Origin: a virus | Strand: one strand, 5' to 3' | IMG/VR virus record: IMGVR_UViG_3300045988_141143 | DNA length: 64,000 nt | Shown: positions 19,962 to 53,333 of the stretch, in pieces | Position numbering within the stretch: position 1 is the first letter of the stretch | Layout: the number at the start of each line of letters is the position of its first letter | Program-made: the position numbers and the translations under genes | Notes under the pieces: model-generated | Database searches by the model: none | The model's input: the letters and a program-made list of their open reading frames with translations, nothing else | What the model was told of the DNA's origin: nothing

Positions 19962-19991
19962 ATTGTTGTGTCTTTTATTGTTGTCGGGGTT

Positions 19992-21101: not shown

Positions 21102-21173
21102 GATGTGTTGTGCTGTTATGTGCTGAGTGAAAAAAATGTTGTTGTCGGGACGGAAGTCAGGGAGGGGGGAGGG

Positions 21174-29401: not shown

Positions 29402-29824
29402 TTAATGTTTCACCTGATAGCCTGTCGATGACTCCACAGGGAGGTTCTTCTGCAGAAGGTCTGCCAGCTCGTCGAGGTCATCCTCGTCGAAGGTGATCAT
29501 GCCCTCAAGGATAGAGAGCGACCCCTTGAAGCGCAACTGGTCCACCACGTCGTGAGCCATCTGCGGAATGCTCTCGTCGGGAATGTTACCGAAGTACTTG
29601 CATAGCATCGGCGTGACGAGCGCATTCACTATGGGCTGAATCATGGGTTCCATGTCGGCCTGCAGCGAGTAGTTGCCGCTCACCAGTCCCATGCTGCCGA
29701 TGGTGGCTTGCAACGACTGGAGCATGGGCAGACGCATCAGGTTGCTGGCAGCAATCTGCGAAATGGCTGGCCGTGCCCACTCGGACACGACCGCCGCCAA
29801 AATCTGAGAATTGGTGTAATCCAT
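29402..29824 (-). CDS. Hypothetical protein (140 aa)
   Basis: ORF with an ATG start, tightly packed in the cluster. Confidence 0.45.
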   Translation of the reverse strand: MDYTNSQILAAVVSEWARPAISQIAASNLMRLPMLQSLQATIGSMGLVSGNYSLQADMEPMIQPIVNALVTPMLCKYFGNIPDESIPQMAHDVVDQLRFKGSLSILEGMITFDEDDLDELADLLQKNLPVESSTGYQVKH

Positions 29825-30530: not shown

Positions 30531-31439
30531 TTATCGCATGGCTTCCTCAAGAGTTCTAATATAAGGTATGGCTTCGTTGCGCACAATGTCGAGAAAAAGT
30601 TGTGCTGACCGCTTCATCGGCACGTCCTTCATCCAGTGGGCATTGCTCATCAGGTCGTGCTCAAGCCCAGCGATGGGACGGACGGTAAGGGTGGGGTGAC
30701 TCTTCAGATAAAGTTTAGGCATGAAAGTAACACAATGGGTTTCTTCCACGATGGCAAGGTCTTCGTTGGGGTCGCTCACAATACATTTTACATTCAGTTT
30801 CATCAAGTCGTATCTCAGATATTGCTGGAAGGTATTGAACACCCTTTCGCCTACATCGGGCATAATCACGTTGTGCCTTAACAAATCCTCGTATGACACC
30901 TTTTCCAGTCGGGCCAAAGGATGGGTGTCCCGCATCATCGCATAGATACGGAAAGGAATACAGGGTTCTGACTTGATACCCTCATTCTTGTAGGCAGAGT
31001 TCAGAGTGAAGGCGAGGTCAATGGAGTGGCTTCTCAACAGGTGGTTCAAGTTCGCTGCCTTGGCAAACTCGGCGTTGATTCTCACATTCGGGTATCGCTC
31101 CATGAAGATAAGTGCAGCCATCCGAATGTAAGGTGCGATAAAAGAGCCTACACCTATCCTCAGCTCGCCCACAAGGCAGTTGTTGAGCGCATTGATTTGC
31201 TCCTTGCAGTCATCCGTCTGCTTCAGTATCTCCTTGGCGCGAGGCAAAAGCGCCTCGCCGCTCTCGGTGAGCATGATGCTGTGCGAGGTGCGGATAAGCA
31301 GCTTGCACCTCAGTTCATCCTCAAGAGCCTTGATGTGCTGACTGATGGCGGACTGAGTGACACAACAGCGCGTGGCTGCAATGCTGAAAGATAAAGTTTC
31401 AGCGACATATACAAATGAGCGCAAATGACGAAGTTCCAT
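30531..31439 (-). CDS. LysR-family transcriptional regulator
   Basis: N-terminal wHTH MELRHLRSFVYVAETLSFSIAATRCCVTQSAISQHIKALEDEL. About 300 aa with a LysR-type substrate-binding body. Confidence 0.9.
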   Translation of the reverse strand: MELRHLRSFVYVAETLSFSIAATRCCVTQSAISQHIKALEDELRCKLLIRTSHSIMLTESGEALLPRAKEILKQTDDCKEQINALNNCLVGELRIGVGSFIAPYIRMAALIFMERYPNVRINAEFAKAANLNHLLRSHSIDLAFTLNSAYKNEGIKSEPCIPFRIYAMMRDTHPLARLEKVSYEDLLRHNVIMPDVGERVFNTFQQYLRYDLMKLNVKCIVSDPNEDLAIVEETHCVTFMPKLYLKSHPTLTVRPIAGLEHDLMSNAHWMKDVPMKRSAQLFLDIVRNEAIPYIRTLEEAMR

Positions 31440-33830: not shown

Positions 33831-35552
33831 TTAGAGAAGACCATTATCACGTTTATACTTCTCGATAGCCTTCTTTGAGCCAACAGGATCTGAAGGGTTC
33901 CAAGTGGGGTAGGCTGTATGAGGTTCGGTTACCTGTGCGCCTTCTCCGTTGTTACCTGGTGCAGTTCCTGCCGCAGGTTCCTTGCCAGCCTCTTCGGTAA
34001 GGGCGGCTATCTGGGCGTCCTTGTCGGCAATGGTCTGCTCGGCTGTAGCGAGCGATTCCTTTGCGCCTTTCAGTTCCTCTTCGACCTTGGCTTTGTCGGT
34101 TGTCAGGGCAGCTATCTCCTCATCCTTCTTGGTTGTCAGGGCAGCTATCTCCTCGTCCTTCTTGGCAGTAAGAGTTGTCAGTTCCTCGTTCTTCTTGGCG
34201 AGAGTTGCAGCCGTTTCATCAGAAAGAGTCTTAGCTGCATCGTGTTCTTTCTGAAGAGCATCAAACTTAGCCTGAAGGTCGGCGAGCTTTTGCTCTGCTG
34301 TAGTGGCTTTCTGCTTGGCATCGGCCACAGCCTGCTCGTTGGTGTTCAACTTGGTTTCGAGAGAGTCGAGCAATGGAGCATTCATGAATGTGCCTTCTGC
34401 ATTGACTTCAATCTCGCCTTCCTTGATACCACAAGCAGCGCTAATCAATGGGTAATTTTTCATATCAATATGAGTTTGGTTAAAATTGTTGTTGTTATCC
34501 TTTTTTGAAGATGGAGCGGTTGTTGGCTCTTGTGCTGAACTGGCTACTGTAGCTGAGGTAGAGGCGTTCTTAGGCTCTTTTTCTGTGCCTTCGGTATCAG
34601 TACCTTGGTCATCAGTGGTGATTTCTCTCTCGATAGGCTTTGCTGTACCATTGTAGAGATCGAAGCAGCGGTGGATGCAGTCAAGGAAAGTAGATTGACC
34701 ATCCACCAAAATGCCCTTTGCCTCTTCGGCTGTGAATATCTTTCCATGGAGATGCTCCTTTTTAGCTTTCGGGCAAGCCTTCTTTACATCTCTGCGGAAC
34801 TCGACGCCCAGTTCAGCCAACTCTGCCACGAACTTCTTCGTATTGCCGTCGTTGGCAATATCACGGAACTCGCGATTCTTGTCATAAGACTCCGGATCGT
34901 AAATCTCGTGATAAGTCTTGTTGGTGAACTTGTTGGTACTGCCGTCGGCCTCAGTATAAAAAGCACCCATCACACCGATGCAGCCTACACCGTCCTTCGG
35001 GTGCATGTAATATCGCTCATCGCAGAGAGAGGCGAGATACATACCGGCAGAATAGCAGTCGCCATCGATAAAACACAGAACTGGCTGGCCAAGTGAACGT
35101 GCGTAATTGATGGCCTGTTCATAATCATTCTTAGCCCATGCTGTACCGCCAGGTGTGTCAATAATAAAGATATGACCACGACACAAAGGATGATTGGCTG
35201 CATTAATCATTATGTTACGATGATCGACGGAACCATACGAGCAACCGCCGCCATTGCGGGTGATAGGACCATCAACTGTAAGGACAGAGACAAAAGGAAA
35301 ATTTTGTGCATCATCATCTTTGAGAGCCCACTGACTTCTCACCTGATTACCATCCTCTGAGATCTGATATTCCTCGGGATAGTAGACGCATCCGTTCTCG
35401 TCTATAGCAGTGACAAAACCGCAAGTCTTCTGAGGCTTCTCGAAAGCAGCATGAGTGTTCAGGTTCTGCTCTAAGGCCTTACGTATTCCGTGTACGAACT
35501 CGGGGTTGATCATCCACTCCTTGTTGGTCATAATTTCAAAAAGACCTTTCAT
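33831..35552 (-). CDS. Head maturation protease (S49/SppA-ClpP fold) fused to a coiled-coil scaffold domain
   Basis: IFIIDTPGGTAWA...CFIDGDCYSAGMYLASLCD...VGCIGVMG matches the S49 pattern InSPGG / aaSaayxla / GSIGV. The C-terminal 200 aa is Ala/Glu/Lys/Thr-rich coiled coil. Confidence 0.7.
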   Translation of the reverse strand: MKGLFEIMTNKEWMINPEFVHGIRKALEQNLNTHAAFEKPQKTCGFVTAIDENGCVYYPEEYQISEDGNQVRSQWALKDDDAQNFPFVSVLTVDGPITRNGGGCSYGSVDHRNIMINAANHPLCRGHIFIIDTPGGTAWAKNDYEQAINYARSLGQPVLCFIDGDCYSAGMYLASLCDERYYMHPKDGVGCIGVMGAFYTEADGSTNKFTNKTYHEIYDPESYDKNREFRDIANDGNTKKFVAELAELGVEFRRDVKKACPKAKKEHLHGKIFTAEEAKGILVDGQSTFLDCIHRCFDLYNGTAKPIEREITTDDQGTDTEGTEKEPKNASTSATVASSAQEPTTAPSSKKDNNNNFNQTHIDMKNYPLISAACGIKEGEIEVNAEGTFMNAPLLDSLETKLNTNEQAVADAKQKATTAEQKLADLQAKFDALQKEHDAAKTLSDETAATLAKKNEELTTLTAKKDEEIAALTTKKDEEIAALTTDKAKVEEELKGAKESLATAEQTIADKDAQIAALTEEAGKEPAAGTAPGNNGEGAQVTEPHTAYPTWNPSDPVGSKKAIEKYKRDNGLL

Positions 35553-38571: not shown

Positions 38572-39468
38572 TTATATGTCAAACTCATCACAATACTGGC
38601 GCATACGCTCGATGATGATGTTGCGTATCTTCTCACCAATAATCTTGGCATTGGGATGCGGTGTGCCCGTCTTGCCATGATAGCGAAGGTCGAGAATATG
38701 GCTCCAGTCGGAAAGCGTATAGGTATATGCCACAACGGTATAGGTATCGAGAGGCAGAACACCTCGTGCGTCCTGCGGCTTCAAGCCGGACTTCAGAAGT
38801 CGGTTGTAGCCCCACTCGCATACTCGGCATACAAGGCCATAGACCATGCGCTGCCAACGACTGCCTTCTACGTGCCAATGCGGACGTGCTATCTGTACGC
38901 CTCCCTTCTTCTCTAAATAGCAATAGCGTGTGCTCTGTTCGGCGATGCTGTTGGGCGACGTGCGGTTGAGCTCACGCGAGGTACTTATCTGCGTGGTTAC
39001 TACCAGCGTCATGCGGATAATAGAGAATGCCTCCTCGCACTCGTACTTCAGTGCCTTCTCGATAAACTCGTCTTCGCTGACACCATACTGACTAAGCGTA
39101 TTCATTATGTCCTCGTGCTCAAGCGCAAACTGAGTATTGGTACTGAACCATACCTTATGATTCTTGGTGGCATAGTTGATGTAAGGCGATGCCTCCAGAT
39201 ATGCCCAGATGTGGTTAGGAAGACCCCTTTCGTTGGGCATAAAGAAATAGACTGTGCCGTGGCGAAACATCGAGCGATGTCCGCTTTCCCAGAAGCCTTT
39301 GCAGCGTTCCTCGTCACGCTTCTGGATGAAAGTTTTCTCTTCCTCTTCGGTCATTCCTTCTTCGGGCTGCTTGCCCTTTGCCTTGTAGCATATTCTGCCC
39401 ACTCTTGCTATATGTTGTGCAAGAGTAGTCTGCTGCCACCATTCTACTTGTGGTTCGATGAATTTCAT
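38572..39468 (-). CDS. ThyX-like (flavin-dependent thymidylate synthase fold) protein with a non-canonical signature
   Basis: SGHRSMFRHGTVYF aligns with ThyX GHETPFEH. SRELNRTSPNSIAEQSTRY aligns with ARQWFRHRIASYNELSGRY, so RHR becomes RTS. ARGVLPL aligns with ARIVLPL. Confidence 0.6.
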   Translation of the reverse strand: MKFIEPQVEWWQQTTLAQHIARVGRICYKAKGKQPEEGMTEEEEKTFIQKRDEERCKGFWESGHRSMFRHGTVYFFMPNERGLPNHIWAYLEASPYINYATKNHKVWFSTNTQFALEHEDIMNTLSQYGVSEDEFIEKALKYECEEAFSIIRMTLVVTTQISTSRELNRTSPNSIAEQSTRYCYLEKKGGVQIARPHWHVEGSRWQRMVYGLVCRVCEWGYNRLLKSGLKPQDARGVLPLDTYTVVAYTYTLSDWSHILDLRYHGKTGTPHPNAKIIGEKIRNIIIERMRQYCDEFDI

Positions 39469-39509: not shown

Positions 39510-40016
39510 TCATATTTTCCGAAGTTTACTCAATACTCGTCGCTGCACCTTGTCACACAGACTTTCGAGCGAGCCGTTATTGAAGATTACTGCATCGTAG
39601 AAGAACAAGGACAGAAGATTGCGCTGTTGGTCGCGGTCTAAGCGTTCCTGCGACACCCCTCGGCGCAGTCGAGTTGCTTCCCATGCCGTCACACAAATCT
39701 TGAATAGCTCGATGTCGGGGAATTTCTCGCACAAGGCTTTCAGTCCGTCCTCGTCAATGACGTAAATAGCCTTGTCCGTCACCTGGTCGATGGTGGTCCA
39801 ATACTCATAGCCGCCATACTGGGTGTATGCCAACATCTTGTCGTGCGGTACGTCGCACTTCTCTACAAAATAATGCTGCCAACCGTCAATTTCGCCTTCA
39901 CGCTTCGGACGAGTGGTATAAGAACATATCACTTTATAGCCGCCCATGTCGGACAGCATCTGAGCCACAGTGTCCTTTCCTGCACCACTCGGACCAGTAA
40001 TTGTTATCAGTTTCAT
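39510..40016 (-). CDS. Guanylate-kinase-like nucleoside monophosphate kinase
   Basis: P-loop GPSGAGKDT plus TTRPKREGEIDGWQHYF, which matches the Gmk signature T-[ST]-R-x2-R-x2-E-x2-G-x2-Y-x-F. Confidence 0.7.
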   Translation of the reverse strand: MKLITITGPSGAGKDTVAQMLSDMGGYKVICSYTTRPKREGEIDGWQHYFVEKCDVPHDKMLAYTQYGGYEYWTTIDQVTDKAIYVIDEDGLKALCEKFPDIELFKICVTAWEATRLRRGVSQERLDRDQQRNLLSLFFYDAVIFNNGSLESLCDKVQRRVLSKLRKI

Positions 40017-40194: not shown

Positions 40195-41280
40195 TTAGCC
40201 ATAGATTTCCTGCATATCCTCCCTCGAAAGTGTTACCTTGGCTCTTTTGCAAAACATGAAAAAAGTATTTGCTCTTACTCTTTCGTATTTTCCGAATGAC
40301 TTCCAAGGAGCCACAAAGTCTGATTCACGGTGTCCGTGGTTGGCATCAAAGGGACGGAAACGAGAAACTCGCTTCCACATATCATAGCCTTCATTCGGAT
40401 CGATACTGTATAAAGACATTCCGCATTTAACCCAGTCATCATAGTTTTCCATAATGTCAACAGCATTCTGCTCTACCTTACGTACAAGGACACGCGCTTT
40501 GCGCAAGATGATGTCGGGTGTATCATTTTCCCAATCACCAGTATAACCCGACCTCTGACCTGACGACGTATTTTCGTAATGCGTAGCAACTTTAGTTACA
40601 GGAATTAGCGATGGCAACACAGCCATATCTTCCAGTCCCTTATACGGCACCACATTTTCATTGATATATATATGTTCGGGATCGTCCCAGGAGGCGAAGC
40701 GCACACGACCGATGTTGCTGCAAGCCTTGTCGAGCATGATGCCGATAGCGGCATATTCTTTGAGCAGAGCTTTGAACTGGTCTTTGTGTCTTTCGGGATA
40801 GGCCAGACGAACCAGACCGAAATAACCAGTACCAGAGCAAGACCGCATCATTAATCCTATCTCAGGACGAAAACGGGCAAGCTTAAATATACTTTCAAAA
40901 TCAGTTATCTGAAGATTGTCCTGCAGATCAATGTCGATGGCGAGCCAGCCCGTGTGCTGTTTCAGGTGGCTCTCTCGTCGGCTCACCATGACACGCTGCC
41001 CTGGATGCGTCAGACTGTCATCTTCATAGAGAGCGAACAAGCCGCTAAGAGTGGCACCAGGTAACATCTTCTTGGTATTGATGTACTCAGGCATTTTCTT
41101 TGCCTTGCTGCCAAATTCCTGACGCATAGCACGAAGACGCTGCACATACGGCTTCCATCTATCCGTAAGACAGAACTCGCGGATGGTCATCTGCTGAATG
41201 CACTCACCCGTCTCGCGGTCTACGAAACGGCCATAAGCATCTTGGGCAGACTCATAAATAGAGCAAACTTCGTCAAACAT
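40195..41280 (-). CDS. VirE/BT4734-type N-terminal domain protein (replication/primase-associated candidate)
   Basis: GWLAIDIDLQ, SCSGTGYFGLVRL and ACSNIGRVRFASWD resemble conserved blocks of Bacteroidota VirE_N-type proteins. Recognition is from memory only. Confidence 0.4.
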   Translation of the reverse strand: MFDEVCSIYESAQDAYGRFVDRETGECIQQMTIREFCLTDRWKPYVQRLRAMRQEFGSKAKKMPEYINTKKMLPGATLSGLFALYEDDSLTHPGQRVMVSRRESHLKQHTGWLAIDIDLQDNLQITDFESIFKLARFRPEIGLMMRSCSGTGYFGLVRLAYPERHKDQFKALLKEYAAIGIMLDKACSNIGRVRFASWDDPEHIYINENVVPYKGLEDMAVLPSLIPVTKVATHYENTSSGQRSGYTGDWENDTPDIILRKARVLVRKVEQNAVDIMENYDDWVKCGMSLYSIDPNEGYDMWKRVSRFRPFDANHGHRESDFVAPWKSFGKYERVRANTFFMFCKRAKVTLSREDMQEIYG

Positions 41281-41457
41281 ATCTTAGTTATTATACTTAA
41301 TACTTTCACTGCAAAATTAAGAAATAAAACCTAAATAACAAAATATCTGGGGTATTTTCTTGTGTATTTAAGATATATTAAAAGAAATTTAATCGAAATA
41401 TCCCAGTTGTTTCACGTAATGATAGGTATTTTTGAGTGATGAGAAGGAGCATAAAAT

Positions 41458-42150
41458 AAAATGAGACCAAAAAGAAGACTCTGGTCTCATTTCTGTATCA
41501 AAAAGTCCCATTTTTCAAAAATGAACCAAAAAGCAAAAGTCCACTCATCCTATTTTTCTCCTTTTTAGTCCCATGATTGTCTCACGATTATCACCCTGTT
41601 GCCCACTTATTTCTTGCTGTTACTTGCTTACTAATTAGCTTTTTATATTATTTTGGTCTCAAAATGATTATTTTTTTTATAAACTAATATGCGCATAAGA
41701 AATAAAATATTTATCTAAAAGATATAAAATACAGCAAAATTGGCTCAAATCCATCTTATACTTTGCTCCATTTCAATCTTGTAAGTAACTTATTGTCTGA
41801 TGTTTACGGCAAAGCCGTTAATGCTACTAACTTCTAAATTGAGGTTAGGGGCTTTTGATTTTAGGAGAATAAAAAAATTACCCAAAATTCTGATATAGTA
41901 TGCTTAGGATTCATGAAAAATGCGACCAAAACCCTGAAATGAGACCAAAAATGCGAATAAAGTCCCAATAAATGAGACTGTTACACCACTACTCTACCCT
42001 GTCACATTCATATTTGCGAAATGCGACCAGATTATTCGGATTCCATATTGACTATCGTTTTATAGCCGTTCACACCTCACAGCGAAAGAGAAAAACACTG
42101 CGTTTCACAACGAAAAAAGACCACCACGTTTCACAACGGAGCGGTCTCAT
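41458..42150. repeat. Iteron-rich AT-rich non-coding region (origin/operator candidate)
   Basis: Nine copies of ATG(A/C)GACC. Six are direct at 41461, 41521 (degenerate), 41920, 41939, 41972 and 42021. Three are inverted at 41482, 41654 and 42143. Four AAAGTCC(C/A) copies; 12-bp CGTTTCACAACG x2 (42101, 42127). Confidence 0.6.
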
Positions 42151-42199
42151 CAGAAAATACTAACTAATAAATAAGATAAAGAAAATAAAATTCGTAAAC

Positions 42200-45100
42200 T
42201 TAGCCCTTGCCTTTCATAAACTGGTTGGCTTTTGTCATGCTGTCATAAAGATTACCACGGCCATACATGTCTATCTTTGCGTAGATAGGTTCATTCAGTC
42301 GGTCGAGGAGGGTCTTGACGGCTTGCATGAGAGCGGCTTGGCTGGCTGTGTTGTTAGCGATTACATTGTTGGCCGCTGGTGCGCCCAACAGAAGATTACC
42401 ATTTTCTGCTGTAAAGCCCGCTGCTGCGTCCCCCATTGCGCTCGCAAGCTCGCCGACATTACCATTGTCAAATGCGCGTCTTGCTGCACGTCTGCCTGAA
42501 TAGTTGCTGTCGTAGTTGACGAGAGCCTTGAGGAGTGCCGGATTGTTCATCATCATGGCGTGTGTCGTCTCACGACCGATTACTATCTCGGGTCCATTCT
42601 CTGCTACAAGAGAAGGCTGGCCATTGATGGTAGTAGCCCTTGGAGTAGTTATCATTTGCACGCCAGTTTTTTGCCTGCCGTCATCCTCTGTTGCCCAATA
42701 AATATCACCATTGTCGGCTACAAATGGCTTCAGGTCTTGCACGTTACCGCTGTCATACGTAAGCATACCTGAAACGAGCTTCGTGTTTTTAGATACAGAA
42801 GAAGATTTCTTACTGCTGCTGCTGAAAGCCGAATTAAGTGCCCACTGAAGCAAGCCCATCAGAGTAGCCATCACTCCTGCTGCAGCAATAGGACCAGCAA
42901 TAGGACCTAAGAACTCAAAACACTTCGCCATTGCTCCCGCGATAGAGAATGTCACCTCTTGGTCGGTGCGGGCCGCGTCCGAGTTTGCCACATCCTGATT
43001 GTTCTGTTCTTTAGCTGCAAGATTGGTGGTCATAGCCGTCTGGGTCATATCAAGAATGGCATTCTGCGCTATCTCCGTACTCTTACTTTGCTCTTTATTG
43101 CCGGCATCGGTGATGTCAGTTATATTCTTGACACCTTGATGGGTTTCTTTCTCTCTATCCTTAGCTCCCTTTTTAACCTCTTTGCTGAGTTCTTTTTGAT
43201 GCTTCCTTTCTTTCTTGAGCTGCTTGGCTTTTTCCTTGTCGTCTCCAGTTTTCTTTGAAGAACCGCCAAGAGTGAAATTGGTATTCATCAAGTCACCCAC
43301 AAGGCTGCCTCCGATACCGGCTACGGCATCGGACAGAGTAGTACCACCTGTAATAGCACCAGCAACGGCTGTTCCCGCTTGAGAGGCTGTATCAATACCG
43401 TAAGTCTCCTTGTTATAATCATGGATAGTACCGTTTGGATGACGTTTCTTCCATGCAGCAGGAGGCTCAGTATTTGCAAGATTGTTGCCGTTGGCATCAA
43501 TATACTGACCTCCTACGACACGTACCCACATCGGGTTTTCAGCCGTGCCCAGGTTACGCCAATCCATATCAATGGTAGTAGCATTAGCATTAGCATTGGC
43601 TCTCGCTGCATCAATGCCAGGCTGTGCGTTTTTCTTGCCTTGTTTCGCTCCGGCATCATTGATGGCTTTCCACATTTGGGTGTTCACGTCATTTAGCGCC
43701 ATATTAGCCCACGACTCAATCATAGACTTCAGGGCATTCTTGATGCTCTCCTGTGCGCTTGATACGTCAGACTCCATCATGGCGAAAGCCTTGCCTACCT
43801 CTGCACCGAAGGTTTCAATAGGCTGTACGAGCTGCTGCATCTGCGAAAGGCGGTTCTTCATCGCCGTCGCCATTTGGTTGGCATAAGCAAGTTCGGCCTC
43901 CTGGCGAGCCTTATCCGCCTCGTCTACCAACTGCTTGTTACGAGAGTTCTTCAGACAGAAGGCATAGTAATCTTCTGCCAGCTGCATCTTCAGCTTCAGT
44001 AGTTCTACCTCTGGGTCAGCGGTAAGGTCGGCAAGACCGAGGTTGGAAAGAAGGTTGGTCCGCTTGCCGAAGAGAGAACTTTCCTGCTGCATCTTGCGCA
44101 GCTTTGCCTGCTGATCGAGATTGCGTTTGTTGTTTTTCCAAAGAAAATCAGAAATCTTCTTGGCTTCATCGTATTCTTTTTTCTGTGCAGCTGTATATTC
44201 ATCAACATATTGGATAAGCTTGTGATAGAATAGCTTTACATTCTGCTCAGTCTCGCCCATCAACGCAAGAAAGACAGAAGGCATCTGCATATAGTCTTTT
44301 CCAAATAAGAACTGAAGCAGCTTCTGCTTCTCCCCGTTTGTCTCAAAAAGTGCCGCCATTTGTGTGCGAGCCTTTTCCAAAACTTTTATAACATCAGCCC
44401 TATCTTTATTTAGCGTTTCAAGCGAAACGTCTGCAAAACGAGAATTTATTAATCCCAAGAAAGAATTTTGTTGAACTATGCCTGTGTAATCATGTTCAAG
44501 TAGCTCCTTCCGACGTTGCTCTATGCGTTTTTGAATCACATTGCTTGAATCGTTCTCTTTTGATGAAGCATTCAGCCACATTCGGTCAAGATAAGCACGG
44601 TCGCGTTCATCTGATTTATATCCGACAACTTGCCCTTTCTTAATTTTAGGCATTTGCTTTAATAAATCAGAACGAAGTTGTGCTACATTAGTATTCAATA
44701 TGGCATCCTCAAGCATACGAGACTGAGATTGTCCAAACTCATCGTCTTTTTCCTTGCGATATTTGTCTATTGATTTTTTAAATTTATCCCAAGTTTTATT
44801 TCCAAAGACAATAGACTGCTGCGCAGCTGCAAGGGCAGCATCCATTTGTATTTGAATGTCATTAACTGCCTGTTCTTGTAATTCTTTCTCTACACCCTTC
44901 TTTGAAAGATCCTCAACAGTAGCTGTCATTTGGCGCTTATAGAAATTCTTTATCTTCGTAATAAACTCAGATATGTTGTTGCGAGCATCATCTTCAGGAG
45001 TAGTTGTGTTACCTCCACCACCGTTGCCGCCATAAACTTTTTGACCTACAGCCATTCCATCTCCTACATCAAGTTTAGCCCCAAACTTTTTCCGTAAGGC

Positions 45101-48100
45101 TTCTTCTTGTGCGTTTATTTCATCCAGTCTTGACTGAGCCTTATCTCGCTCGCGTTTCGCAGCCGCACGTTGTCCTGCCTGTCCGATTGCACCCTGTGCC
45201 TGCCCTGGCATCATAGCACCACCAGAGGTCTGAATATATCTTCCATTAGGAGCGTTCACGTGTGTATTTGCATACGCATCTTCTTTTTTCTGCAAATCAA
45301 GAATAGCATCCACTTTCTCACGACCCAATTCTGCCAACTTAGAACGAGCGCCCTCAAGTTCGTAGTAATCTTGTAGACGTTGAAAGTTTTTCTCCCATGC
45401 CTTAGTGTTTTCCTTAACAACACCCGTCTCTGTGTTAATTTTAGCGTTGAGGTTAGGAATAGCGCCATTCAATTTATTCATAGCTTCGAGGCGAAGATTC
45501 ATTGACGCAGAAGTATCGTGCATAACATTATGCAGACGCTTCAACGATTCTTGTTCCTCCATAGCCTTACGCTTACCTTCTTCTTGTACTTCGTTAAGCA
45601 CGCGCTGTCCTGCGGATAAACCGTTCAAAGAGGAAGAATATTCGGCAAGTTTTACGACCAATATACCCAATAATCCAATTAATCCTCCCATAATACCCGC
45701 CTGCTTGGCAAACGACAAGCCATTAAATGCAGCTTTAGTTTTGGCAACAACAGCCCCCAGAGACAACATACCTCCCTCTAATCCCTGAACATAAGTAAGC
45801 AGTTTTGCAAAGCCACCCGCTAATCCTGCCATACTAATCATGGTGATCAACGTAGGAAGTATGCTCAGTAGCATCTTTATAGAGGCAAAGAGCAGCGCTA
45901 ACGCTACACGAACCTCTGTCATAAAACTCATACTGGTTGTAAGTTCCTTTACAACTTCAAACCAAGCTTTTGCTATATCACGAATAGGTCCCGAAGCCGC
46001 ACTTGAAGAAACAAACTGTTTTTCAAGAAGGTTGTTAGCCCTCTCCATATACGCGGCTGCAGTTTCCTGCTGCATATTATACTCAACCGTAACAGCAGAA
46101 CCTTCATTAAAAGCTTTATTAGACTCCTTTACCGCTTTAGTAAGCATACCATTCTTGGCAGCCATTGTTACCATAGTTTTTACCAAACGAGCGCCATCTG
46201 AGCCTAAGTCCTTAAATAAGCCATCAAGAGCAAAAAGGTTTTTAGTTTCGCCCATTCTGCGGAAAATGGTTAAGATTGCATCCATACCTCTTCCACTCTC
46301 GATCATCTTCTTCAAAGAACCAGAAGCTATACCGAGTGATTTTTCAATAGGGCTTGTACCTTTACGAAGCTCTACAACCAACTTTCCAAAAGCTGTTGCT
46401 GCAACTTCTGGCTCAAGGGCCATTGAGTCAACAGCCGCACCAAGAGCCAAAATATCTGGGGTTGTTAAAGCCGCCTGTTCGCCCAATGCAAGCATACGAT
46501 TAGAGAAATCCACAATCTTTCCGCTTGTCGCTGTAGATGTAGATGCCAGTCGGAAAATCGCAGAGCCTGTTTTCAGCATAGCCTGCTCCACTCCATATTT
46601 ATCCGCAAGACCCATCACCTCAGTAATCTTAGCAAGAGCCGTCAACGCTTCATCGCCCAAATCCTCTTTCAATGCGACGTTCACCTGGTCTGCGGCACGG
46701 ACGAAGCCAGCTAAATTTTGAGTTGTAACACCAAGTTTAGCTCCCGCATAGGCCAAGTTGTTCAGTTCTTCTATGCTTGTACGGGTATCGATTTTAGCAA
46801 GTTCCTTTGATAAATTTGCTACTTCGTCAGTTGTAGATAAAGCGACCTTACGAATATTAGTAAGCTGTTCGCTATACTTCATATTAAGACGAAACAAATC
46901 CATAAAGTACGTTTTAAGCTGATTGAACATCGCAAACAATCCGACATAAGCCGTGAGGTTCTTCAGTGCTGTCTGCCATGCGCTGCCATGCTTGTTGGCC
47001 GCACCCGTCGCCTCGTCGATGTTCTTCTTCAGCTCCTTCATCGACTTCTGCTTGTCGGCAAACTCCTTACTCTTGGTATTGATTTGGTTCAGTTCCTCTT
47101 CGAGTTGCTTGTAGGCACGGCGCAGTTCGTCGAGGGAGGCCTTACCCTGCTTGCTACGGGCGAGAATGTCGTTAAGGGCACTCTGCGACATACGGGTCCC
47201 CTTGAGGGTCTGTTCGAGCATGGAGTATTGGCGACGGAGGTCGGCCACATACTTGCTGCCAGCAGGGAGTTGCTGAATCTTCTGCTGTATCACTTCCATC
47301 GTGCGCTTGATGTCTTCGCCCGAAGCCTTGTTAGGTTCAGCCAATACCTGCTTCATCTGCTTCCAGCTCATTGATGCTTTCTGAGTCTTACCCGACACAG
47401 CCTCCAGCCGCTTCTCTATCTCCTGGAGCTCGCTGTTGTATTTTGCAATATCAGCCGAATTGCCTGTAGGTGTGTTGTCGCGAGCCTCAGTAAGCGTAGA
47501 CTTGGCTCGGCGCAAATCAGATGCTGAAGCGTTTTGACTGGTTACAGTCTGATGTGCCTCTGCCACGCCCATTTTGCCCTTGCGTCTGTCCTCCTCGGCT
47601 TCAAGTTGCTTCAATGTGGCGAGATTCTGCTGATAGGACGCATCCGATTTTTGCAGCGAACCTACGAGGTCACGCTGTTGTTTGATGGCCTTGTCGAGCC
47701 ATTGATCGGATTGGTTCTTTACATTATTCAAGCCATCGGCTATCTTGACATACTGACCTTCAATAAGGCGCATTTGATCGCCCACTTGCTTCATCTCGCT
47801 TCGTATCTGCTCTGCCTTCTTCAGGTCGGCATCCGAGCCGGTGAGCTTAGCAAGAGCCGACTTGCCCGAACCCATAGCACGACGCAGGTCACGAAGCTTA
47901 GTGTTGGTGAGGTCTTGCACCACCTCGCTCAATCGCTTCGTGTCCTCGATATTGTCACGCTGCACTTGCGACAACGCCTTCAATGTGCTCTCTGCCCTCT
48001 TACACTCAGCAGTGTTAGCCTGTCCTGCGGCAGTCATCTTCTGGATGTCGGCAGTATATTTCTGCACAAGATTGTCAATCTCTTCCAACACCTTCTTGGC

Positions 48101-48151
48101 TGTAGAGGCATTGGCCGTGATTACTACTTTTGCTAATTTTTGTGTTGCCAT
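42200..48151 (-). CDS. Tail tape measure protein (1983 aa)
   Basis: Extreme length, long Ala/Lys/Gln/Glu-rich coiled-coil segments, and a central hydrophobic/glycine-rich block (GLAGGFAKLLTYVQGLEGGMLSLGAVVAKT...). Confidence 0.8.
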   Translation of the reverse strand: MATQKLAKVVITANASTAKKVLEEIDNLVQKYTADIQKMTAAGQANTAECKRAESTLKALSQVQRDNIEDTKRLSEVVQDLTNTKLRDLRRAMGSGKSALAKLTGSDADLKKAEQIRSEMKQVGDQMRLIEGQYVKIADGLNNVKNQSDQWLDKAIKQQRDLVGSLQKSDASYQQNLATLKQLEAEEDRRKGKMGVAEAHQTVTSQNASASDLRRAKSTLTEARDNTPTGNSADIAKYNSELQEIEKRLEAVSGKTQKASMSWKQMKQVLAEPNKASGEDIKRTMEVIQQKIQQLPAGSKYVADLRRQYSMLEQTLKGTRMSQSALNDILARSKQGKASLDELRRAYKQLEEELNQINTKSKEFADKQKSMKELKKNIDEATGAANKHGSAWQTALKNLTAYVGLFAMFNQLKTYFMDLFRLNMKYSEQLTNIRKVALSTTDEVANLSKELAKIDTRTSIEELNNLAYAGAKLGVTTQNLAGFVRAADQVNVALKEDLGDEALTALAKITEVMGLADKYGVEQAMLKTGSAIFRLASTSTATSGKIVDFSNRMLALGEQAALTTPDILALGAAVDSMALEPEVAATAFGKLVVELRKGTSPIEKSLGIASGSLKKMIESGRGMDAILTIFRRMGETKNLFALDGLFKDLGSDGARLVKTMVTMAAKNGMLTKAVKESNKAFNEGSAVTVEYNMQQETAAAYMERANNLLEKQFVSSSAASGPIRDIAKAWFEVVKELTTSMSFMTEVRVALALLFASIKMLLSILPTLITMISMAGLAGGFAKLLTYVQGLEGGMLSLGAVVAKTKAAFNGLSFAKQAGIMGGLIGLLGILVVKLAEYSSSLNGLSAGQRVLNEVQEEGKRKAMEEQESLKRLHNVMHDTSASMNLRLEAMNKLNGAIPNLNAKINTETGVVKENTKAWEKNFQRLQDYYELEGARSKLAELGREKVDAILDLQKKEDAYANTHVNAPNGRYIQTSGGAMMPGQAQGAIGQAGQRAAAKRERDKAQSRLDEINAQEEALRKKFGAKLDVGDGMAVGQKVYGGNGGGGNTTTPEDDARNNISEFITKIKNFYKRQMTATVEDLSKKGVEKELQEQAVNDIQIQMDAALAAAQQSIVFGNKTWDKFKKSIDKYRKEKDDEFGQSQSRMLEDAILNTNVAQLRSDLLKQMPKIKKGQVVGYKSDERDRAYLDRMWLNASSKENDSSNVIQKRIEQRRKELLEHDYTGIVQQNSFLGLINSRFADVSLETLNKDRADVIKVLEKARTQMAALFETNGEKQKLLQFLFGKDYMQMPSVFLALMGETEQNVKLFYHKLIQYVDEYTAAQKKEYDEAKKISDFLWKNNKRNLDQQAKLRKMQQESSLFGKRTNLLSNLGLADLTADPEVELLKLKMQLAEDYYAFCLKNSRNKQLVDEADKARQEAELAYANQMATAMKNRLSQMQQLVQPIETFGAEVGKAFAMMESDVSSAQESIKNALKSMIESWANMALNDVNTQMWKAINDAGAKQGKKNAQPGIDAARANANANATTIDMDWRNLGTAENPMWVRVVGGQYIDANGNNLANTEPPAAWKKRHPNGTIHDYNKETYGIDTASQAGTAVAGAITGGTTLSDAVAGIGGSLVGDLMNTNFTLGGSSKKTGDDKEKAKQLKKERKHQKELSKEVKKGAKDREKETHQGVKNITDITDAGNKEQSKSTEIAQNAILDMTQTAMTTNLAAKEQNNQDVANSDAARTDQEVTFSIAGAMAKCFEFLGPIAGPIAAAGVMATLMGLLQWALNSAFSSSSKKSSSVSKNTKLVSGMLTYDSGNVQDLKPFVADNGDIYWATEDDGRQKTGVQMITTPRATTINGQPSLVAENGPEIVIGRETTHAMMMNNPALLKALVNYDSNYSGRRAARRAFDNGNVGELASAMGDAAAGFTAENGNLLLGAPAANNVIANNTASQAALMQAVKTLLDRLNEPIYAKIDMYGRGNLYDSMTKANQFMKGKG

Positions 48152-49367: not shown

Positions 49368-49898
49368 CTATTCGGGGTCGGGGGATTTTTCTTTATTCAT
49401 CTCCTCATCATCCCGCATGAGTTCCTTCAACTTGATATTGAAATGTCGCTCGGTCTTGTCGGCTACTATCTTCTGCATCACTCTCGCCCATCCTGCTCCG
49501 TTGCAGGTGCTTTCGTTCTCAAGGATGCTGACGAACTGGACTCCGCAGTAAAGGGCGGCGAGATAGTTGGCGAGGTGGAGCGGATTCATATAGTCGAGTA
49601 CGATGGTGTCGATGGCGGTGGCGAGGAAAATGGCGAGGATGAGGACGGAGAAGTCCTGCACCATCTTGGTCATCTTCTTGGATTTCAGTTTGCCGTCCAT
49701 CTGGCATTTGGGGTTCTTCTTGATGGCCTCACGATACCGGCTGTAGATACGGCGGTTGAGCCGCCATGCCGTGTAGCAATCCAGTAGAAGGGCGAAGAAG
49801 CATACACCGATGTAGTTGAGTGAGGGTTCGATGTAGCACCACAGCAGACCTATTGCGGCTGCTATGAATCGGGTAATGTTGGGTAAGATCGTTTGCAT
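49368..49898 (-). CDS. Holin-family membrane protein (toxin secretion/phage lysis holin type)
   Basis: LLLDCYTAWRL and YCGVQFVSILENESTCNG resemble the LDxxTG ... E-x-x-SI-x-EN blocks of that holin family. Three to four TM segments. Confidence 0.5.
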   Translation of the reverse strand: MQTILPNITRFIAAAIGLLWCYIEPSLNYIGVCFFALLLDCYTAWRLNRRIYSRYREAIKKNPKCQMDGKLKSKKMTKMVQDFSVLILAIFLATAIDTIVLDYMNPLHLANYLAALYCGVQFVSILENESTCNGAGWARVMQKIVADKTERHFNIKLKELMRDDEEMNKEKSPDPE

Positions 49899-51193: not shown

Positions 51194-52044
51194 ATGTTAA
51201 ACGAACAACTGCAGAAAAAGGTAAAACAGTCGATAAAACTCCTGCAGAGTGTGCAGAAGCGATACGACGGCGAGATAGAGATAGCCTACTCGGGCGGTAA
51301 GGACTCCGACGTGATCCTTCAGCTGGCGAAAGAGGCAGGCATCAAGTATCGGGCCATATACAAGAATACGACCATCGACCCGCCAGGCACGTTGGGGCAC
51401 GTCAGAGAAATGGGAGTGGAGATACTGCGGGCCAAGACATCCTTCTTTCATCTCGTGGCACAGAAAGGATTTCCATCTCGCTTTACTCGTTTCTGTTGTG
51501 AAGAACTGAAGGAATACAAGGTGCTCAACAAAAGTATTATCGGCGTGCGCAAGGCTGAGAGCCGGAAACGAAACGAAAGATACAACGAGCCGACAGAGTG
51601 CCGATACTTCGGAAAGAAGAAAGAGGAAAATCACGTAGAACAGATTTATCCTATTCTGGAATGGACCGATGAGGACGTGCGTGACTTCATCATAGACAGA
51701 AAGTTGAAACTCGCACCCATTTATTACAATTCGGGGGGCAAATCGACGTGTCGAAACGTCTTGGCTGTATGTGCTGTCCTCTTGCCTCAAGGCGCAAGCG
51801 CATTATCGAGTTTCAGAAATATCCCAAGATAGCAAAGGCTTATCTCCGTGCGGGGCAACGATTTATGGAAACGCATCCTGACAGCAAGGCGTGCCAGAGG
51901 TACGACAATGTTTACGAATGGTTCGTTCGCGACGTATTTTACAGCTCCAATGCAGATTGGAGCAAGGTAAGCACAGGGCTGTTCGGTAAGCCGGACTTCA
52001 AGAAATTCTTGGAGGACAAGTTCGGTATTGACTTGACATTATAA
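51194..52044 (+). CDS. PAPS-reductase-family (adenine nucleotide alpha-hydrolase) protein, split at a G6 tract as assembled
   Basis: The SGGKDS PP-loop lies in ORF 51194..51832. The family-typical C-terminal RLGCMCCP lies in ORF 51748..52044 (-1 frame). Seven G at 51733-51738 would fuse them as ...YYNSGGQIDVSKRLGCMCCP.... Confidence 0.7.
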
Positions 52045-52724: not shown

Positions 52725-53333
52725 ATGAATAACAACATAAAAAGAAAGGACTGGGTAGGCGGCTCGGCTGCTGTATTCAAGACGTTGGGCGCGAGCAACC
52801 ATACGAATGCGGATAGACAGCGTGAGGATTACTATGCCACTGAGCCGAAGGCTACGGAATGGCTGTGCAAGCTGGAGAGGTTTGAGGGCAGGATTCTTGA
52901 GCCTTCGTGTGGCGAGGGCCACATGAGTAGAGTATTGGAGGCAGCAGGGTATGAGGTGGTGAGCCGCGATCTTGTGGATAGAGGGTACGGCGAAGTTGCC
53001 GACTTTCTCTCTATTGACAATATGGAGTGGGATGGCAATATCGTGACTAATCCACCCTACAAATACGCACAGGAATTTGTGGAGAAGGCTCTAAGCATCA
53101 TTCCCGAAGGAAAGAAGGTGGCGATGTTTCTAAAGCTGACTTTCCTCGAAGGCAAGGGTCGACGCGCTCTCTTCCGTTCTACTCCCCCCATTCGTGTTTG
53201 GGTAAGTTCATCACGACTGAAATGCGCCATGAATGGCGACTTCGAGGCTTACGGCAGCAGCGCCGCGGCTTACGCATGGTTCGTGTGGGAGAAAGGATAT
53301 AAAGGCGAGACAACTGTAAAATGGTTTAACTGA
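52725..53333 (+). CDS. Small N6-adenine DNA methyltransferase (NPPY type)
   Basis: AdoMet motif ILEPSCGEGHM followed by the catalytic IVTNPPY. Confidence 0.75.
   Translation: MNNNIKRKDWVGGSAAVFKTLGASNHTNADRQREDYYATEPKATEWLCKLERFEGRILEPSCGEGHMSRVLEAAGYEVVSRDLVDRGYGEVADFLSIDNMEWDGNIVTNPPYKYAQEFVEKALSIIPEGKKVAMFLKLTFLEGKGRRALFRSTPPIRVWVSSSRLKCAMNGDFEAYGSSAAAYAWFVWEKGYKGETTVKWFN

What the first reader, a model, noticed from the sequence alone, without database searches (positions are those of the whole stretch)
41281..42199. 0.9-kb AT-rich non-coding gap packed with iterons next to the VirE-like replication gene
The gap between the tape measure stop (42200) and the VirE-like start (41280) has no convincing ORF. 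It holds nine copies of ATG(A/C)GACC. Six are direct, at 41461, 41521 (degenerate), 41920, 41939, 41972 and 42021. Three are inverted, at 41482, 41654 and 42143. The inverted copy at 41482 pairs with the direct copy at 41461 as ATGAGACCA-N12-TGGTCTCAT (41461-41490). There are also four copies of AAAGTCC(C/A) (41502, 41536, 41565, 41959) and a 12-bp direct repeat CGTTTCACAACG (42101, 42127). Iteron clusters in an AT-rich region beside an initiator or primase-type gene are the classic signature of a replication origin.
Basis: partly seen in the sequence, partly recalled or inferred. Interest (0 to 1): 0.58.

Follow-up and report, generated by a model that had tools for sequence, protein, structure and literature searches.

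The report
Conserved origin-like non-coding module in phage
The 0.9-kb gap is a real, conserved non-coding module of an uncultured gut (probably Prevotella) phage family, made of lineage-specific protein-binding repeats around a small conserved double hairpin and an easily melted AT-rich stretch; it looks most like a replication origin, but that function and its link to the neighbouring primase gene are not shown.

Summary
The gap 41281-42199 has no conserved ORF and is 31% GC. Two items are not iterons: the CGTTTCACAACG pair is a window-specific duplication of the tape-measure terminator, and the 42143 copy lies in that terminator's stem.

More than 100 related phage contigs keep the same 0.75-1.0 kb module after the tape-measure gene. 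The repeats sit at fixed positions, about -166, -125, -98, +170, +258, +287, +320, +341 and +360 from a central block. The motif itself changes by lineage: TGRGACC, TGGACTT or TGCAC. That pattern indicates binding sites for a lineage-specific protein.

The central block is two adjacent hairpins with an invariant GTAGCAT loop, supported by compensatory changes (0/500 shuffles). An AT-rich low-stability stretch follows it.

The primase-like protein does not co-vary with the motif. In some genomes a 3.6-kb cassette separates it from the module. GC skew shows no inflection and there are no DnaA boxes.

Best reading: a replication origin with IncQ-like logic (confidence about 0.4). Main rival: a small-RNA gene or regulatory hub.

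The parts
42200..48151 (-). 1983-aa tape-measure-like gene. Its stop marks the left edge of the module, with 'left' and 'right' read in the orientation of the primase gene (window minus strand).
   Evidence: ORF. Pfam PF10145 PhageMin_Tail, E = 6.6e-14. The gene sits upstream of the module in essentially all relatives.
42113..42148 (-). Intrinsic terminator of the tape-measure gene: hairpin GAGACCGCTCCGTTGTGAAACGTGGTGGTCT followed by a T-run.
   Evidence: Terminator scan. A hairpin plus T-run is conserved at this position in all aligned relatives, with different stem sequences (columns 170-215).
42086..42112 (-). Second, partial terminator copy. This is a 25-bp tandem duplication specific to this genome and contains the 42101 copy of CGTTTCACAACG.
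   Evidence: for the hairpin and T-run. One search shows a 25-nt insertion relative to L003 and all other relatives; gap of 919 bp here against 892-894 bp in L003-L005.
41920..42028 (.). Left repeat cluster: ATGCGACC at 42021, ATGAGACT at 41972 (degenerate), AAAGTCCC at 41959, ATGAGACC at 41939, ATGCGACC at 41920.
   Evidence: Relatives carry their own lineage's motif at about -166, -125 and -98 from the central block.
41843..41858 (-). Conserved, apparently unpaired stretch TCAAAAGCCCCTAACC (pattern AAAA-NN-CCC-NNN-C). It lies a fixed 12 nt upstream of hairpin Ha.
   Evidence: Invariant columns. Fixed spacing. This pattern joined to the hairpin recovers only this phage family among 185,579 species genomes.
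41817..41831 (-). Hairpin Ha: GTTA-GTAGCAT-TAAC, a 4-bp stem with an invariant 7-nt loop.
   Evidence: Alignment A3. Stem variants GTTA/TAAC, GTGA/TCAC, GTAG/CTAC, GTGT/ACAC and GTCA/TGAC are all complementary. It is the only copy in the window.
41803..41816 (-). Hairpin Hb: GGC-TTT-GCC, extendable to 5 bp by borrowing the last two bases of Ha. It is followed by the conserved GTAAA.
   Evidence: all three inner pairs show changes on both sides. For Ha and Hb together, 98% of cells are paired and there are 31 double-change cells against 5.6 in shuffles, 0 of 500. T32 and A33 are invariant.
41640..41735 (.). AT-rich stretch of lowest duplex stability, a candidate unwinding region.
   Evidence: In the window, and in 6 of the 7 genomes profiled, one of the three least stable 60-bp stretches of the module starts about 100-145 nt after Ha (75 nt in the seventh). 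The window value is -59.5 kcal/mol against a locus mean of -79.8.
41461..41662 (.). Right repeat cluster: TGGTCTCAA at 41654, TTAGTCCCA at 41565, AAAGTCCA at 41536, ATGAACCA at 41521, AAAGTCCC at 41502, ending in the inverted repeat ATGAGACCA-N12-TGGTCTCAT at 41461-41490.
   Evidence: Homologous positions +170 to +360 in relatives carry their own motif. Nearly every lineage aligned has an inverted pair of its own motif at the right end. On the minus strand the window's inverted repeat also scores as a terminator-like hairpin with a T-run.
41427..41434 (+). Bacteroidota-type -7 box (TATTTTTG) pointing into the module from its right edge. This is a possible leftward promoter.
   Evidence: Many relatives have reverse-strand TAnnTTTG boxes at +279 and/or +365. 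It is a consensus match only.
41312..41319 (-). The -7 promoter box TAATTTTG of the primase gene, 32 nt upstream of its ATG.
   Evidence: A forward TAnnTTTG box lies about 32-49 nt before the ATG in all 62 distinct relatives. TTTG is invariant.
40195..41280 (-). [quoted passage not shown]
   Evidence: Pfam PF08800 (3.2e-07) and PF08707 (7.1e-06). PHROG 'DNA primase' 5.2e-12. The metal-binding motif AIDID is present. The N-terminal 200 aa are mostly 80-97% identical across lineages and the linker 4-25%.

Best explanation
The gap is an autonomous cis-acting DNA module, most likely the phage's replication origin.

Proposed mechanism:
1. A lineage-specific DNA-binding protein, encoded elsewhere and not identified, binds the 8-11 bp repeats on both sides of the centre. 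Mostly same-orientation copies at +170 to +341 would take single units, and the terminal inverted pair a dimer.
2. This binding bends and loads the DNA, and the about 100-bp AT-rich stretch between the centre and the right array melts.
3. Melting exposes, on the primase-sense strand, the conserved double hairpin with its flanks: AAAA-NN-CCC...-12 nt-[GTNN GTAGCAT NNAC][NNN NNN NNN]GTAAA.
4. The hairpin acts as a single-strand initiation signal read by the phage's own small AEP-type primase (AEP catalytic domain, flexible linker, PriCT-2 helix bundle), and the first primer is laid down there.

This is the logic of the IncQ plasmid RSF1010: RepC on iterons, an AT-rich region, and ssiA/ssiB hairpins read by the RepB' primase.

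Shown: the repeats, their conserved positions and lineage-specific sequence, the covarying hairpins, the AT-rich low-stability stretch, the independence of the module from the primase gene, and the primase domain architecture.

Inferred: protein binding, unwinding, priming at the hairpin, and origin function itself.
For: - The repeats are far above chance: 6 observed against 0.0175 expected, 0 of 2000 shuffles. Six of the 7 window matches lie in the gap.
- In 63 relatives, nearly all copies of the lineage's motif within 9 kb fall inside about 730 bp of the gap.
- Site positions are conserved while the motif switches between TGRGACC, TGGACTT and TGCAC.
- In most lineages aligned the right-hand array ends in an inverted pair of that lineage's own motif.
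- The module of 720-1000 bp at GC about 0.32 is kept in most of the 79 primase-linked loci and in further contigs.
- It stays intact beside the tape-measure gene when a 3.6-kb cassette separates it from the primase. So it is not merely that gene's promoter region.
- The double hairpin is supported by covariation: 98% of cells paired, 5 of 7 pairs with compensatory change, 0 of 500 shuffles, and slid controls at or below 50% paired.
- The hairpin's loop and 3' GTAAA are invariant. The stem varies freely, so it is read as a single strand rather than as a duplex palindrome.
- The least stable duplex stretch lies just after the hairpins.
- The neighbouring protein is an AEP catalytic domain plus hypervariable linker plus PriCT-2. 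[quoted passage not shown]
- The conserved primase N-domain matches the invariance of the hairpin.
Against: - There is no functional data.
- No initiator or helicase gene was identified. No protein within about 13 kb co-varies with the motif type.
- Only one hairpin signal, on one strand, exists in the 64-kb window. IncQ has two.
- Repeat spacing of 19-33 bp is not regularly phased.
- There are no DnaA-box-like sites in the gap.
- GC skew passes through the gap without inflection, and its minimum is near 49 kb at a strand switch.
- The hairpins could equally be RNA. Three independent G.U cells and one C.A cell only weakly fix the strand.
- Distant primase-bearing phages show no equivalent hairpin.
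Confidence: 0.4

Rival explanations
1. The module is a small non-coding RNA gene, or a longer non-coding transcript, inside a transcription-control hub. On this reading the conserved unpaired C-rich stretch is a seed and the two hairpins are the RNA body. The flanking repeats are operator sites of a lineage-specific phage regulator that times this transcript or insulates the late (tape-measure) unit from the primase/nucleotide-metabolism unit.
For: - Covariation-supported hairpins with G.U-compatible changes lie on the primase-sense strand.
- A conserved unpaired stretch lies upstream.
- A conserved near-consensus -7-like sequence (TAAATTTC / GAATTTTG) lies about 50 nt before the block.
- Bacteroidota-type -7 boxes point into the module from the right in many genomes.
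- In the window, a terminator-like hairpin with a T-run (41458-41493, minus strand) lies before the primase promoter.
- In some genomes the family-wide LysR-type regulator gene sits right beside the module. From general knowledge, LysR-type regulators classically neighbour small-RNA genes such as oxyR/oxyS and gcvA/gcvB.
Against: - No sense-strand promoter matches TAnnTTTG in a fixed register.
- The region downstream of the hairpins folds no better than shuffles (z between -2.1 and +1.7), so a terminator is not supported.
- No long-range closing helix exists (mean z = -0.27).
- There is no Rfam match.
- No complementary target exists in the window.
- The repeats occur in both orientations and more than 300 nt from any candidate start, which fits DNA-level architecture better than simple operators.
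- Hairpin Ha is thermodynamically weak on its own.
- The LysR helix-turn-helix is nearly identical across motif lineages.
Confidence: 0.3
2. The module is a packaging-recognition site (pac/cos). The flanking repeats would bind the small terminase subunit and the conserved centre would be the cleavage region, as in P1 pac, SPP1 pacL-pacC-pacR or lambda cosB-cosN.
For: - Binding-site clusters flank a highly conserved centre.
- The module is inherited with the structural (tape-measure) side rather than the primase side.
- All six contig ends that fall within 4 kb upstream or downstream of the primase gene lie in the gap, five inside it and one at its tape-measure edge.
Against: - Those contig ends are at scattered positions: -23, +118, +168, +320 and +420.
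- The one full-length case is a 119-bp k-mer overlap of a circular assembly, not a physical end.
- The roughly 100-kb contigs are permuted relative to one another.
- No terminase was recognised among the ORFs of 300 aa or more in the window by Pfam, PHROG or NCBIfam, and none is adjacent.
- A cleavage site would not be expected to evolve by compensatory stem changes.
Confidence: 0.08
3. The module is a plasmid-style partition site or a phage attachment site (attP). The repeats would be centromere or integrase arm-type sites around a core.
For: Repeats in both orientations surround a conserved core in AT-rich DNA. The assemblies are circular.
Against: - No integrase, ParA or ParB was found among the ORFs of 300 aa or more in the 64-kb window.
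- The core occurs in species genomes only as part of the whole phage module, in two Prevotella metagenome-assembled genomes and one mis-binned contig. It never appears as a bare host site or as a half-site junction.
- The core evolves by compensatory changes, which is not the pattern expected if it had to stay identical to a host site.
Confidence: 0.05
4. The gap holds nothing specific: only a terminator, a promoter and chance repeats in AT-rich spacer DNA.
For: A promoter for the primase gene is present.
Against: - Enrichment is far beyond shuffles.
- Site positions are conserved across lineages that are only 57-74% identical in the flanking primase protein.
- The hairpins covary.
- Phage genomes rarely keep 0.8 kb of inert spacer.
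Confidence: 0.03

Closest known systems
IncQ plasmid oriV (RSF1010: RepC iterons, AT-rich region, ssiA/ssiB hairpins read by the RepB' primase)
   Same: - Short repeated binding sites lie next to an AT-rich stretch and a conserved hairpin.
- The hairpin has specific unpaired flanks and a conserved G-T-purine triplet 3' of it.
- The element encodes its own small primase, built as an AEP catalytic domain, a flexible linker and a helix-bundle (PriCT) domain, with no fused helicase (PMC8567376 and PMC5862659).
   Different: - There is one hairpin signal on one strand, not two inverted ones.
- The repeats lie on both sides and in both orientations, are 8-11 bp long and irregularly spaced, rather than 3.5 tandem 20-mers.
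- The primase belongs to the BT4734-like family with PriCT-2, not the RepB' family with PriCT-1.
- No RepC-like or RepA-like genes were found.
- The genome is a roughly 90-105 kb tailed phage of Bacteroidota.
- Nothing has been tested biochemically.
Iteron-type origins of theta plasmids and phages (pSC101, pPS10, P1 oriR, lambda ori, P4 ori with octamer repeats)
   Same: - A cluster of mostly same-orientation repeats ends in an inverted pair of the same motif next to the downstream replication gene.
- An AT-rich unwinding stretch is adjacent.
- Repeat sequence diverges between relatives, as with incompatibility groups.
- As in P4, the repeats are short and occur in both orientations, and a primase gene is close by.
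   Different: - The adjacent gene product does not co-vary with the repeats and can be displaced by 3.6 kb.
- There are no DnaA boxes.
- Spacing is not about 22 bp.
- The inverted repeat is about 145 bp from the primase promoter, too far for simple auto-repression.
Lactococcal phage origins (c2, sk1 and phi31 types): non-coding AT-rich regions with direct and inverted repeats, some transcribed (from my own knowledge; not checked in a paper here)
   Same: A non-coding, AT-rich, repeat-rich origin region lies at a module boundary. A non-coding transcript may be part of origin function, which would reconcile the two leading readings.
   Different: There is no sequence or protein homology, the host phylum differs, and there is no experimental evidence here.
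Trans-acting bacterial small RNAs (for example the Bacteroides small RNAs catalogued in Rfam)
   Same: An unpaired conserved stretch is followed by short covarying hairpins, and the whole lies in an intergenic region.
   Different: - There is no match to any of 4227 Rfam families.
- A promoter and a terminator are not supported.
- The block is flanked by arrays of DNA repeats.

Membership tests
Iteron-type replication origin | Multiple copies of a short specific binding motif clustered in a non-coding region | tested here: met
   Six exact copies against 0.0175 expected. In 63 relatives, nearly all copies of the lineage's motif fall inside the gap.
Iteron-type replication origin | Repeats regularly spaced and helically phased, mostly direct | tested here: inconclusive
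   The sites at +170 to +341 share one orientation, and those from +258 to +360 are spaced 29, 33, 21 and 19 bp apart. The left cluster has mixed orientation.
Iteron-type replication origin | Adjacent AT-rich DNA-unwinding element | tested here: met
   In 6 of the 7 genomes profiled, one of the three least stable 60-bp stretches starts about 100-145 nt after the hairpins. This is a computed stability only.
Iteron-type replication origin | Cognate initiator encoded next to the repeats and co-varying with them | tested here: not met
   The primase-like protein has only 1 lineage-specific column. No gene within about 13 kb tracks the motif type. A cassette can separate gene and repeats.
Iteron-type replication origin | Host DnaA boxes | tested here: not met
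   There is no TTATCCACA match with at most 1 mismatch in 41281-42199. Not all phage origins need them.
Iteron-type replication origin | Supports initiation of replication | not testable with these tools
   This needs origin cloning, marker-frequency analysis or nascent-strand mapping. GC skew gives no inflection at the gap, but in phages skew follows transcription.
IncQ-type oriV with single-strand initiation (ssi) signals | Conserved hairpin with sequence-specific flanks, read as a single strand | tested here: met
   The structure shows compensatory changes in 5 of 7 pairs, with an invariant loop and invariant 3' GTAAA. Whether it acts as DNA or RNA is not known.
IncQ-type oriV with single-strand initiation (ssi) signals | Two signals on opposite strands | tested here: not met
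   The 64-kb window holds a single copy.
IncQ-type oriV with single-strand initiation (ssi) signals | Element-encoded AEP-type primase with a helix-bundle domain | tested here: met
   PF08800 plus PF08707, the DxD motif and a hypervariable linker. The architecture parallel to RepB' is described in PMC5862659 and PMC8567376. It is a different AEP family.
IncQ-type oriV with single-strand initiation (ssi) signals | The primase binds and primes on the hairpin | not testable with these tools
   This needs a primer-synthesis assay on single-stranded DNA carrying 41795-41862.
Small-RNA gene | Conserved secondary structure with covariation | tested here: met
Small-RNA gene | Own promoter and intrinsic terminator | tested here: inconclusive
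   Only 7-of-8 matches to TAnnTTTG, in shifting register. Downstream folding is no better than shuffles.
Small-RNA gene | Membership of a described RNA family | tested here: not met
   No Rfam match at the gathering threshold, and no relevant match at E <= 1.
pac/cos packaging site | Fixed genome ends at the site, and terminase genes adjacent | tested here: not met
   Contig ends are scattered, and one is a 119-bp assembly overlap. No terminase is recognisable nearby. Virion-end mapping was not possible.
attP site | Integrase gene present and core identical to a host attB | tested here: not met
   There is no integrase among the window ORFs of 300 aa or more. The core is found only inside complete phage modules.

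The most novel reading that the evidence does not exclude
The invariant-loop double hairpin, with its conserved 5' unpaired stretch and 3' GTAAA, may be a dedicated single-strand initiation signal read by the BT4734-type AEP/PriCT-2 primase. The flanking repeats would then be bound by a separate, lineage-switching initiator. That would make this the first IncQ-like 'initiator plus hairpin-specific primase' origin in a tailed phage. It would also be the first template-recognition signal assigned to the BT4734-like primase family. Alternatively, the hairpin block could be a new phage small RNA conserved across an abundant family of probable Prevotella phages.
Probability: 0.25. Interest if true: 0.65.

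Novelty: new variant of a known kind. Interest (0 to 1): 0.5.

Why it matters
This phage family is large. More than 100 contigs of 50-106 kb carry the module, almost all from one human-gut-associated collection. The family is uncultured, most of its proteins are unannotated, and its probable host genus (Prevotella) lacks genetic tools.

A defined 0.7-kb cis module gives a concrete, testable handle on how these phages start replication or switch transcription. Its parts are separable: the repeat arrays, the hairpin block and the AT-rich stretch.

If it is an origin, it could seed shuttle vectors or phage-engineering tools for Prevotella. The lineage-specific repeat variants would then define incompatibility-like groups.

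If the hairpin is the primase's recognition signal, it would give the first substrate for a widespread but uncharacterised primase family.

The module is also a recombination and assembly-break hot spot. That matters for anyone assembling these genomes.

Tried and rejected
1. Repeats as start codons of tiny ORFs (ATG-AGA-CC = Met-Arg-Pro). Rejected: the other lineages' motifs lack a consistent ATG, and the ORFs are 5-63 aa and not conserved.
2. A roughly 30-aa ORF on the + strand across the central block (MLLT...). Rejected: no third-position excess, premature stops and frameshifts.
3. A right-arm ORF in one lineage (LKNSLGGHEVDF...). Rejected: starts and frames vary, and it is absent from the other lineages.
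4. The central block as a LysR box (TTA-N7-TAA). Dropped once the arms were seen to co-vary as a stem. LysR as the repeat-binding protein was also dropped, because its helix-turn-helix is nearly identical across motif lineages.
5. Helix CTAAC/GTTAG, favoured by energy folding. Not kept, because relatives with changed GTTAG show no matching change.
6. A downstream terminator and a long-range closing helix. Neither is better than shuffles.
7. Physical genome ends in the gap. The tested case is a 119-bp assembly overlap and the other ends are scattered.
8. Searching for the cognate binding protein by asking which window proteins are closer to same-motif genomes. Nothing convincing appeared within about 13 kb. 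One 140-aa protein (29402-29824) shows 89% against 76%, and the tape-measure 3' part is slightly closer, probably through linkage.
9. A 14-mer scan of viral contigs was too unspecific; most hits were chance.
10. An equivalent hairpin near distant BT4734-type primases (Cellulophaga phi46:1 and a faecal phage). None found.
11. Rfam, PDB sequence, PHROG and NCBIfam searches gave no function for most neighbouring proteins.
12. No cultured phage matches at the DNA level. The best protein match to the primase is 30% identical.
Full report
**What is at the coordinates**

The gap 41281-42199 lies between the stop of a 1983-aa protein on the minus strand and the ATG of a 361-aa protein on the same strand. 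The first carries a tape-measure domain (PF10145). The second carries BT4734-like_N (the former VirE N-terminal family) and PriCT-2 domains. PHROGs calls the second protein a DNA primase, and it has the AIDID metal-binding motif of archaeo-eukaryotic primases (AEPs). 'VirE-like replication gene' is therefore fair, and more precisely it is a small AEP-type primase without a helicase. The gap is 919 bp and 31% GC in a window averaging about 48%.

**Checking the repeats**

- ATG(A/C)GACC has six exact copies in the gap, and six of the seven in the 64-kb window lie there.
- Dinucleotide shuffles of the gap give 0.0175 copies on average, and none of 2000 reached six.
- AAAGTCC(C/A) has three exact copies against 0.06 expected, and a fourth is degenerate.
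- The palindrome at 41461-41490 is exact.
- The 12-bp repeat CGTTTCACAACG is exact but is not an iteron. Each copy is the core of a hairpin followed by a T-run on the minus strand, directly after the tape-measure stop.
- Alignment with near-identical relatives shows that the second copy is a 25-bp duplication unique to this genome.
- The 'inverted copy' at 42143 is part of the stem of that terminator.

**Relatives**

The primase-like protein recovers 79 loci from 50-106 kb viral contigs, at 57-100% identity. Most keep a 720-1000 bp gap of GC about 0.32 between the tape-measure gene and the primase gene. No cultured phage is close. A specific pattern for the central block finds the module in two Prevotella metagenome-assembled genomes, so the host is probably Prevotella.

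**The repeats are lineage-specific sites at conserved positions**

I take the most conserved block as zero and read in the primase orientation. Motif copies then sit at about -166, -125, -98, +170, +258, +287, +320, +341 and +360 in nearly all genomes. The motif differs by lineage:

- TG(A/G)GACC(AAAA) in the window's lineage, in L025/L027 and in a large further group.
- TGGACTT(TT) in most lineages.
- TGCAC in one lineage.

In each lineage, nearly all copies within a 9-kb locus fall inside the gap. The window carries both of the first two types. In nearly every lineage aligned, the right-hand array ends in an inverted pair of that lineage's own motif. Conserved positions with swapped sequence are what binding sites of a co-evolving protein look like.

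**The centre is a double hairpin**

The block that first looked invariant (TTAGTAGCATTAA) turned out to be a stem-loop once more divergent genomes were added. It reads GTNN-GTAGCAT-NNAC, with stems GTTA/TAAC, GTGA/TCAC, GTAG/CTAC, GTGT/ACAC and GTCA/TGAC. A second hairpin of 3-5 bp with a 3-nt loop follows directly, and then a conserved GTAAA.

On 35 distinct sequences:
- 98% of cells are paired.
- Five of seven pairs show changes on both sides.
- There are 31 double-change cells against 5.6 in shuffles (0 of 500).
- Sliding the partners drops pairing to 11-50%.

The loop and flanks are fixed while the stems vary. The element is therefore read as a single strand, RNA or DNA, and not as a duplex palindrome. 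A few G.U cells favour the primase-sense strand, but one C.A cell argues the other way.

A conserved unpaired stretch (AAAA-NN-CCC-NNN-C) lies a fixed 12 nt upstream. There is one copy only in the window. There is no Rfam match. Energy folding alone prefers a different first helix, but relatives do not keep that helix.

**What follows the hairpins**

One of the least stable duplex stretches of the module begins about 100-145 nt after the hairpins in six of the seven genomes profiled, and it is the least stable of all in three of them, including the window. The supposed terminator in that region folds no better than shuffles, and no closing helix is supported.

**Link to the primase gene**

- The primase protein does not track the motif type. 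Only one alignment column is specific to the window's motif lineage, and its C-terminal half comes in unrelated variants within a single motif type.
- No other gene within about 13 kb tracks the motif type.
- In nine loci the primase has a short upstream gap. In these genomes a 3.6-kb opposite-strand cassette, including the family's LysR-type regulator, is inserted between the last repeat and the primase promoter. The module stays whole beside the tape-measure gene.
- The primase's own promoter, a Bacteroidota TAnnTTTG box, lies about 32-49 nt before its ATG in every genome.

The module is therefore an autonomous unit and not the primase's operator region.

**Tests of the rivals**

- Genome ends. 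All six contig ends near the primase fall in the gap. They are scattered, and the full-length case is a 119-bp overlap of a circular assembly. This points to an assembly-graph break at a variable region, not a physical terminus.
- attP or partition site. No integrase, terminase or partition gene was recognised among the larger ORFs of the window, and the core never occurs as a bare host site.
- Coding. Recurrent small reading frames fail codon-position and length tests.
- GC skew shows no inflection at the gap, which neither helps nor, in a phage, seriously hurts the origin reading.
- No DnaA-box-like sites lie in the gap.

**Interpretation**

The layout resembles an origin. It has repeat arrays for a specific protein, an AT-rich melting stretch, a strand-specific conserved hairpin, and a nearby element-encoded primase.

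The closest mechanistic precedent is IncQ plasmid RSF1010. There RepC binds iterons, the AT-rich region opens, and the RepB' primase starts synthesis on the ssiA/ssiB hairpins at a thymine just 3' of the stem (PMC8567376). [quoted passage not shown] The phage protein has the same three-part build, with a highly conserved catalytic half and a hypervariable linker.

The differences are real:
- One hairpin signal rather than two.
- Repeats on both sides and in both orientations.
- A different primase family.
- No initiator or helicase identified.

I put this reading at about 0.4. A small-RNA gene or transcription hub is the main rival at about 0.3, and the two are not mutually exclusive. Packaging, attachment or partition, and 'nothing' readings are unlikely.

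**Verdict**

The origin idea is reasonable but unproven, and its stated logic (iterons beside their initiator) is not borne out. The more informative features are the lineage-switching repeats and the covarying double hairpin.

Noticed in passing
window 30531-31439 (-); L159 6019-6933 (-): The phage family universally encodes a full-length LysR-type regulator (HTH_1 2e-20 and LysR_substrate 2e-28), 76-99% identical across the best 80 related contigs. This is unusual for a phage. In a subset of genomes the gene lies in a 3.6-kb cassette directly beside the non-coding module, with its 3' end abutting the last repeat.
   Followed up: partly
window 14125-15339 (-), 51194-51832 (+), 38572-39468 (-), 39510-40016 (-): The window carries metabolic-type genes: a beta-ketoacyl synthase-like protein, a PAPS-reductase-domain protein, ThyX, and a guanylate-kinase-like P-loop kinase.
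   Followed up: no
window 25025-25795 (-), 52725-53333 (+), 62104-63348 (-): Three separate DNA methyltransferase genes lie within 64 kb.
   Followed up: no
L002, L012, L015, L033, L039, L042 (ends); L281/L282: Of the 79 related contigs, six end within 4 kb upstream or downstream of the primase gene, and all six ends fall at the gap: five inside it and one at its tape-measure edge. The 92-kb contig 100224 has a 119-bp terminal overlap there. The module therefore seems to be an assembly-graph break point, probably through strain-level variation or recombination.
   Followed up: yes
window 42086-42148: This genome has a 25-bp tandem duplication of the tape-measure terminator hairpin. It is absent from relatives that are 98-99% identical.
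   Followed up: yes
window 18885-22967: A stretch of about 4 kb has clearly higher GC (0.56-0.58) and positive GC skew than its surroundings. Its ORFs have no family match apart from DUF6712, so it may be a mosaic acquisition.
   Followed up: no
whole window: TTATCCACA-like 9-mers (at most 1 mismatch) occur 28 times against 14 expected (0 of 100 shuffles reach 28), yet none lies in the gap.
   Followed up: no
window 40195-41280 (protein residues about 220-270): The linker between the primase catalytic domain and the PriCT-2 domain is hypervariable (4-25% identity between lineages), while the N-terminal 200 residues are mostly 80-97% identical. The C-terminal half exists in at least two unrelated versions.
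   Followed up: partly
window 33831-35552 and 42200-48151: The gene order is unusual. The tape-measure-like gene is preceded by a holin-like gene (49368-49898) and followed by the primase and nucleotide-metabolism genes. The prohead protease/scaffold gene comes only afterwards, on the same strand.
   Followed up: no
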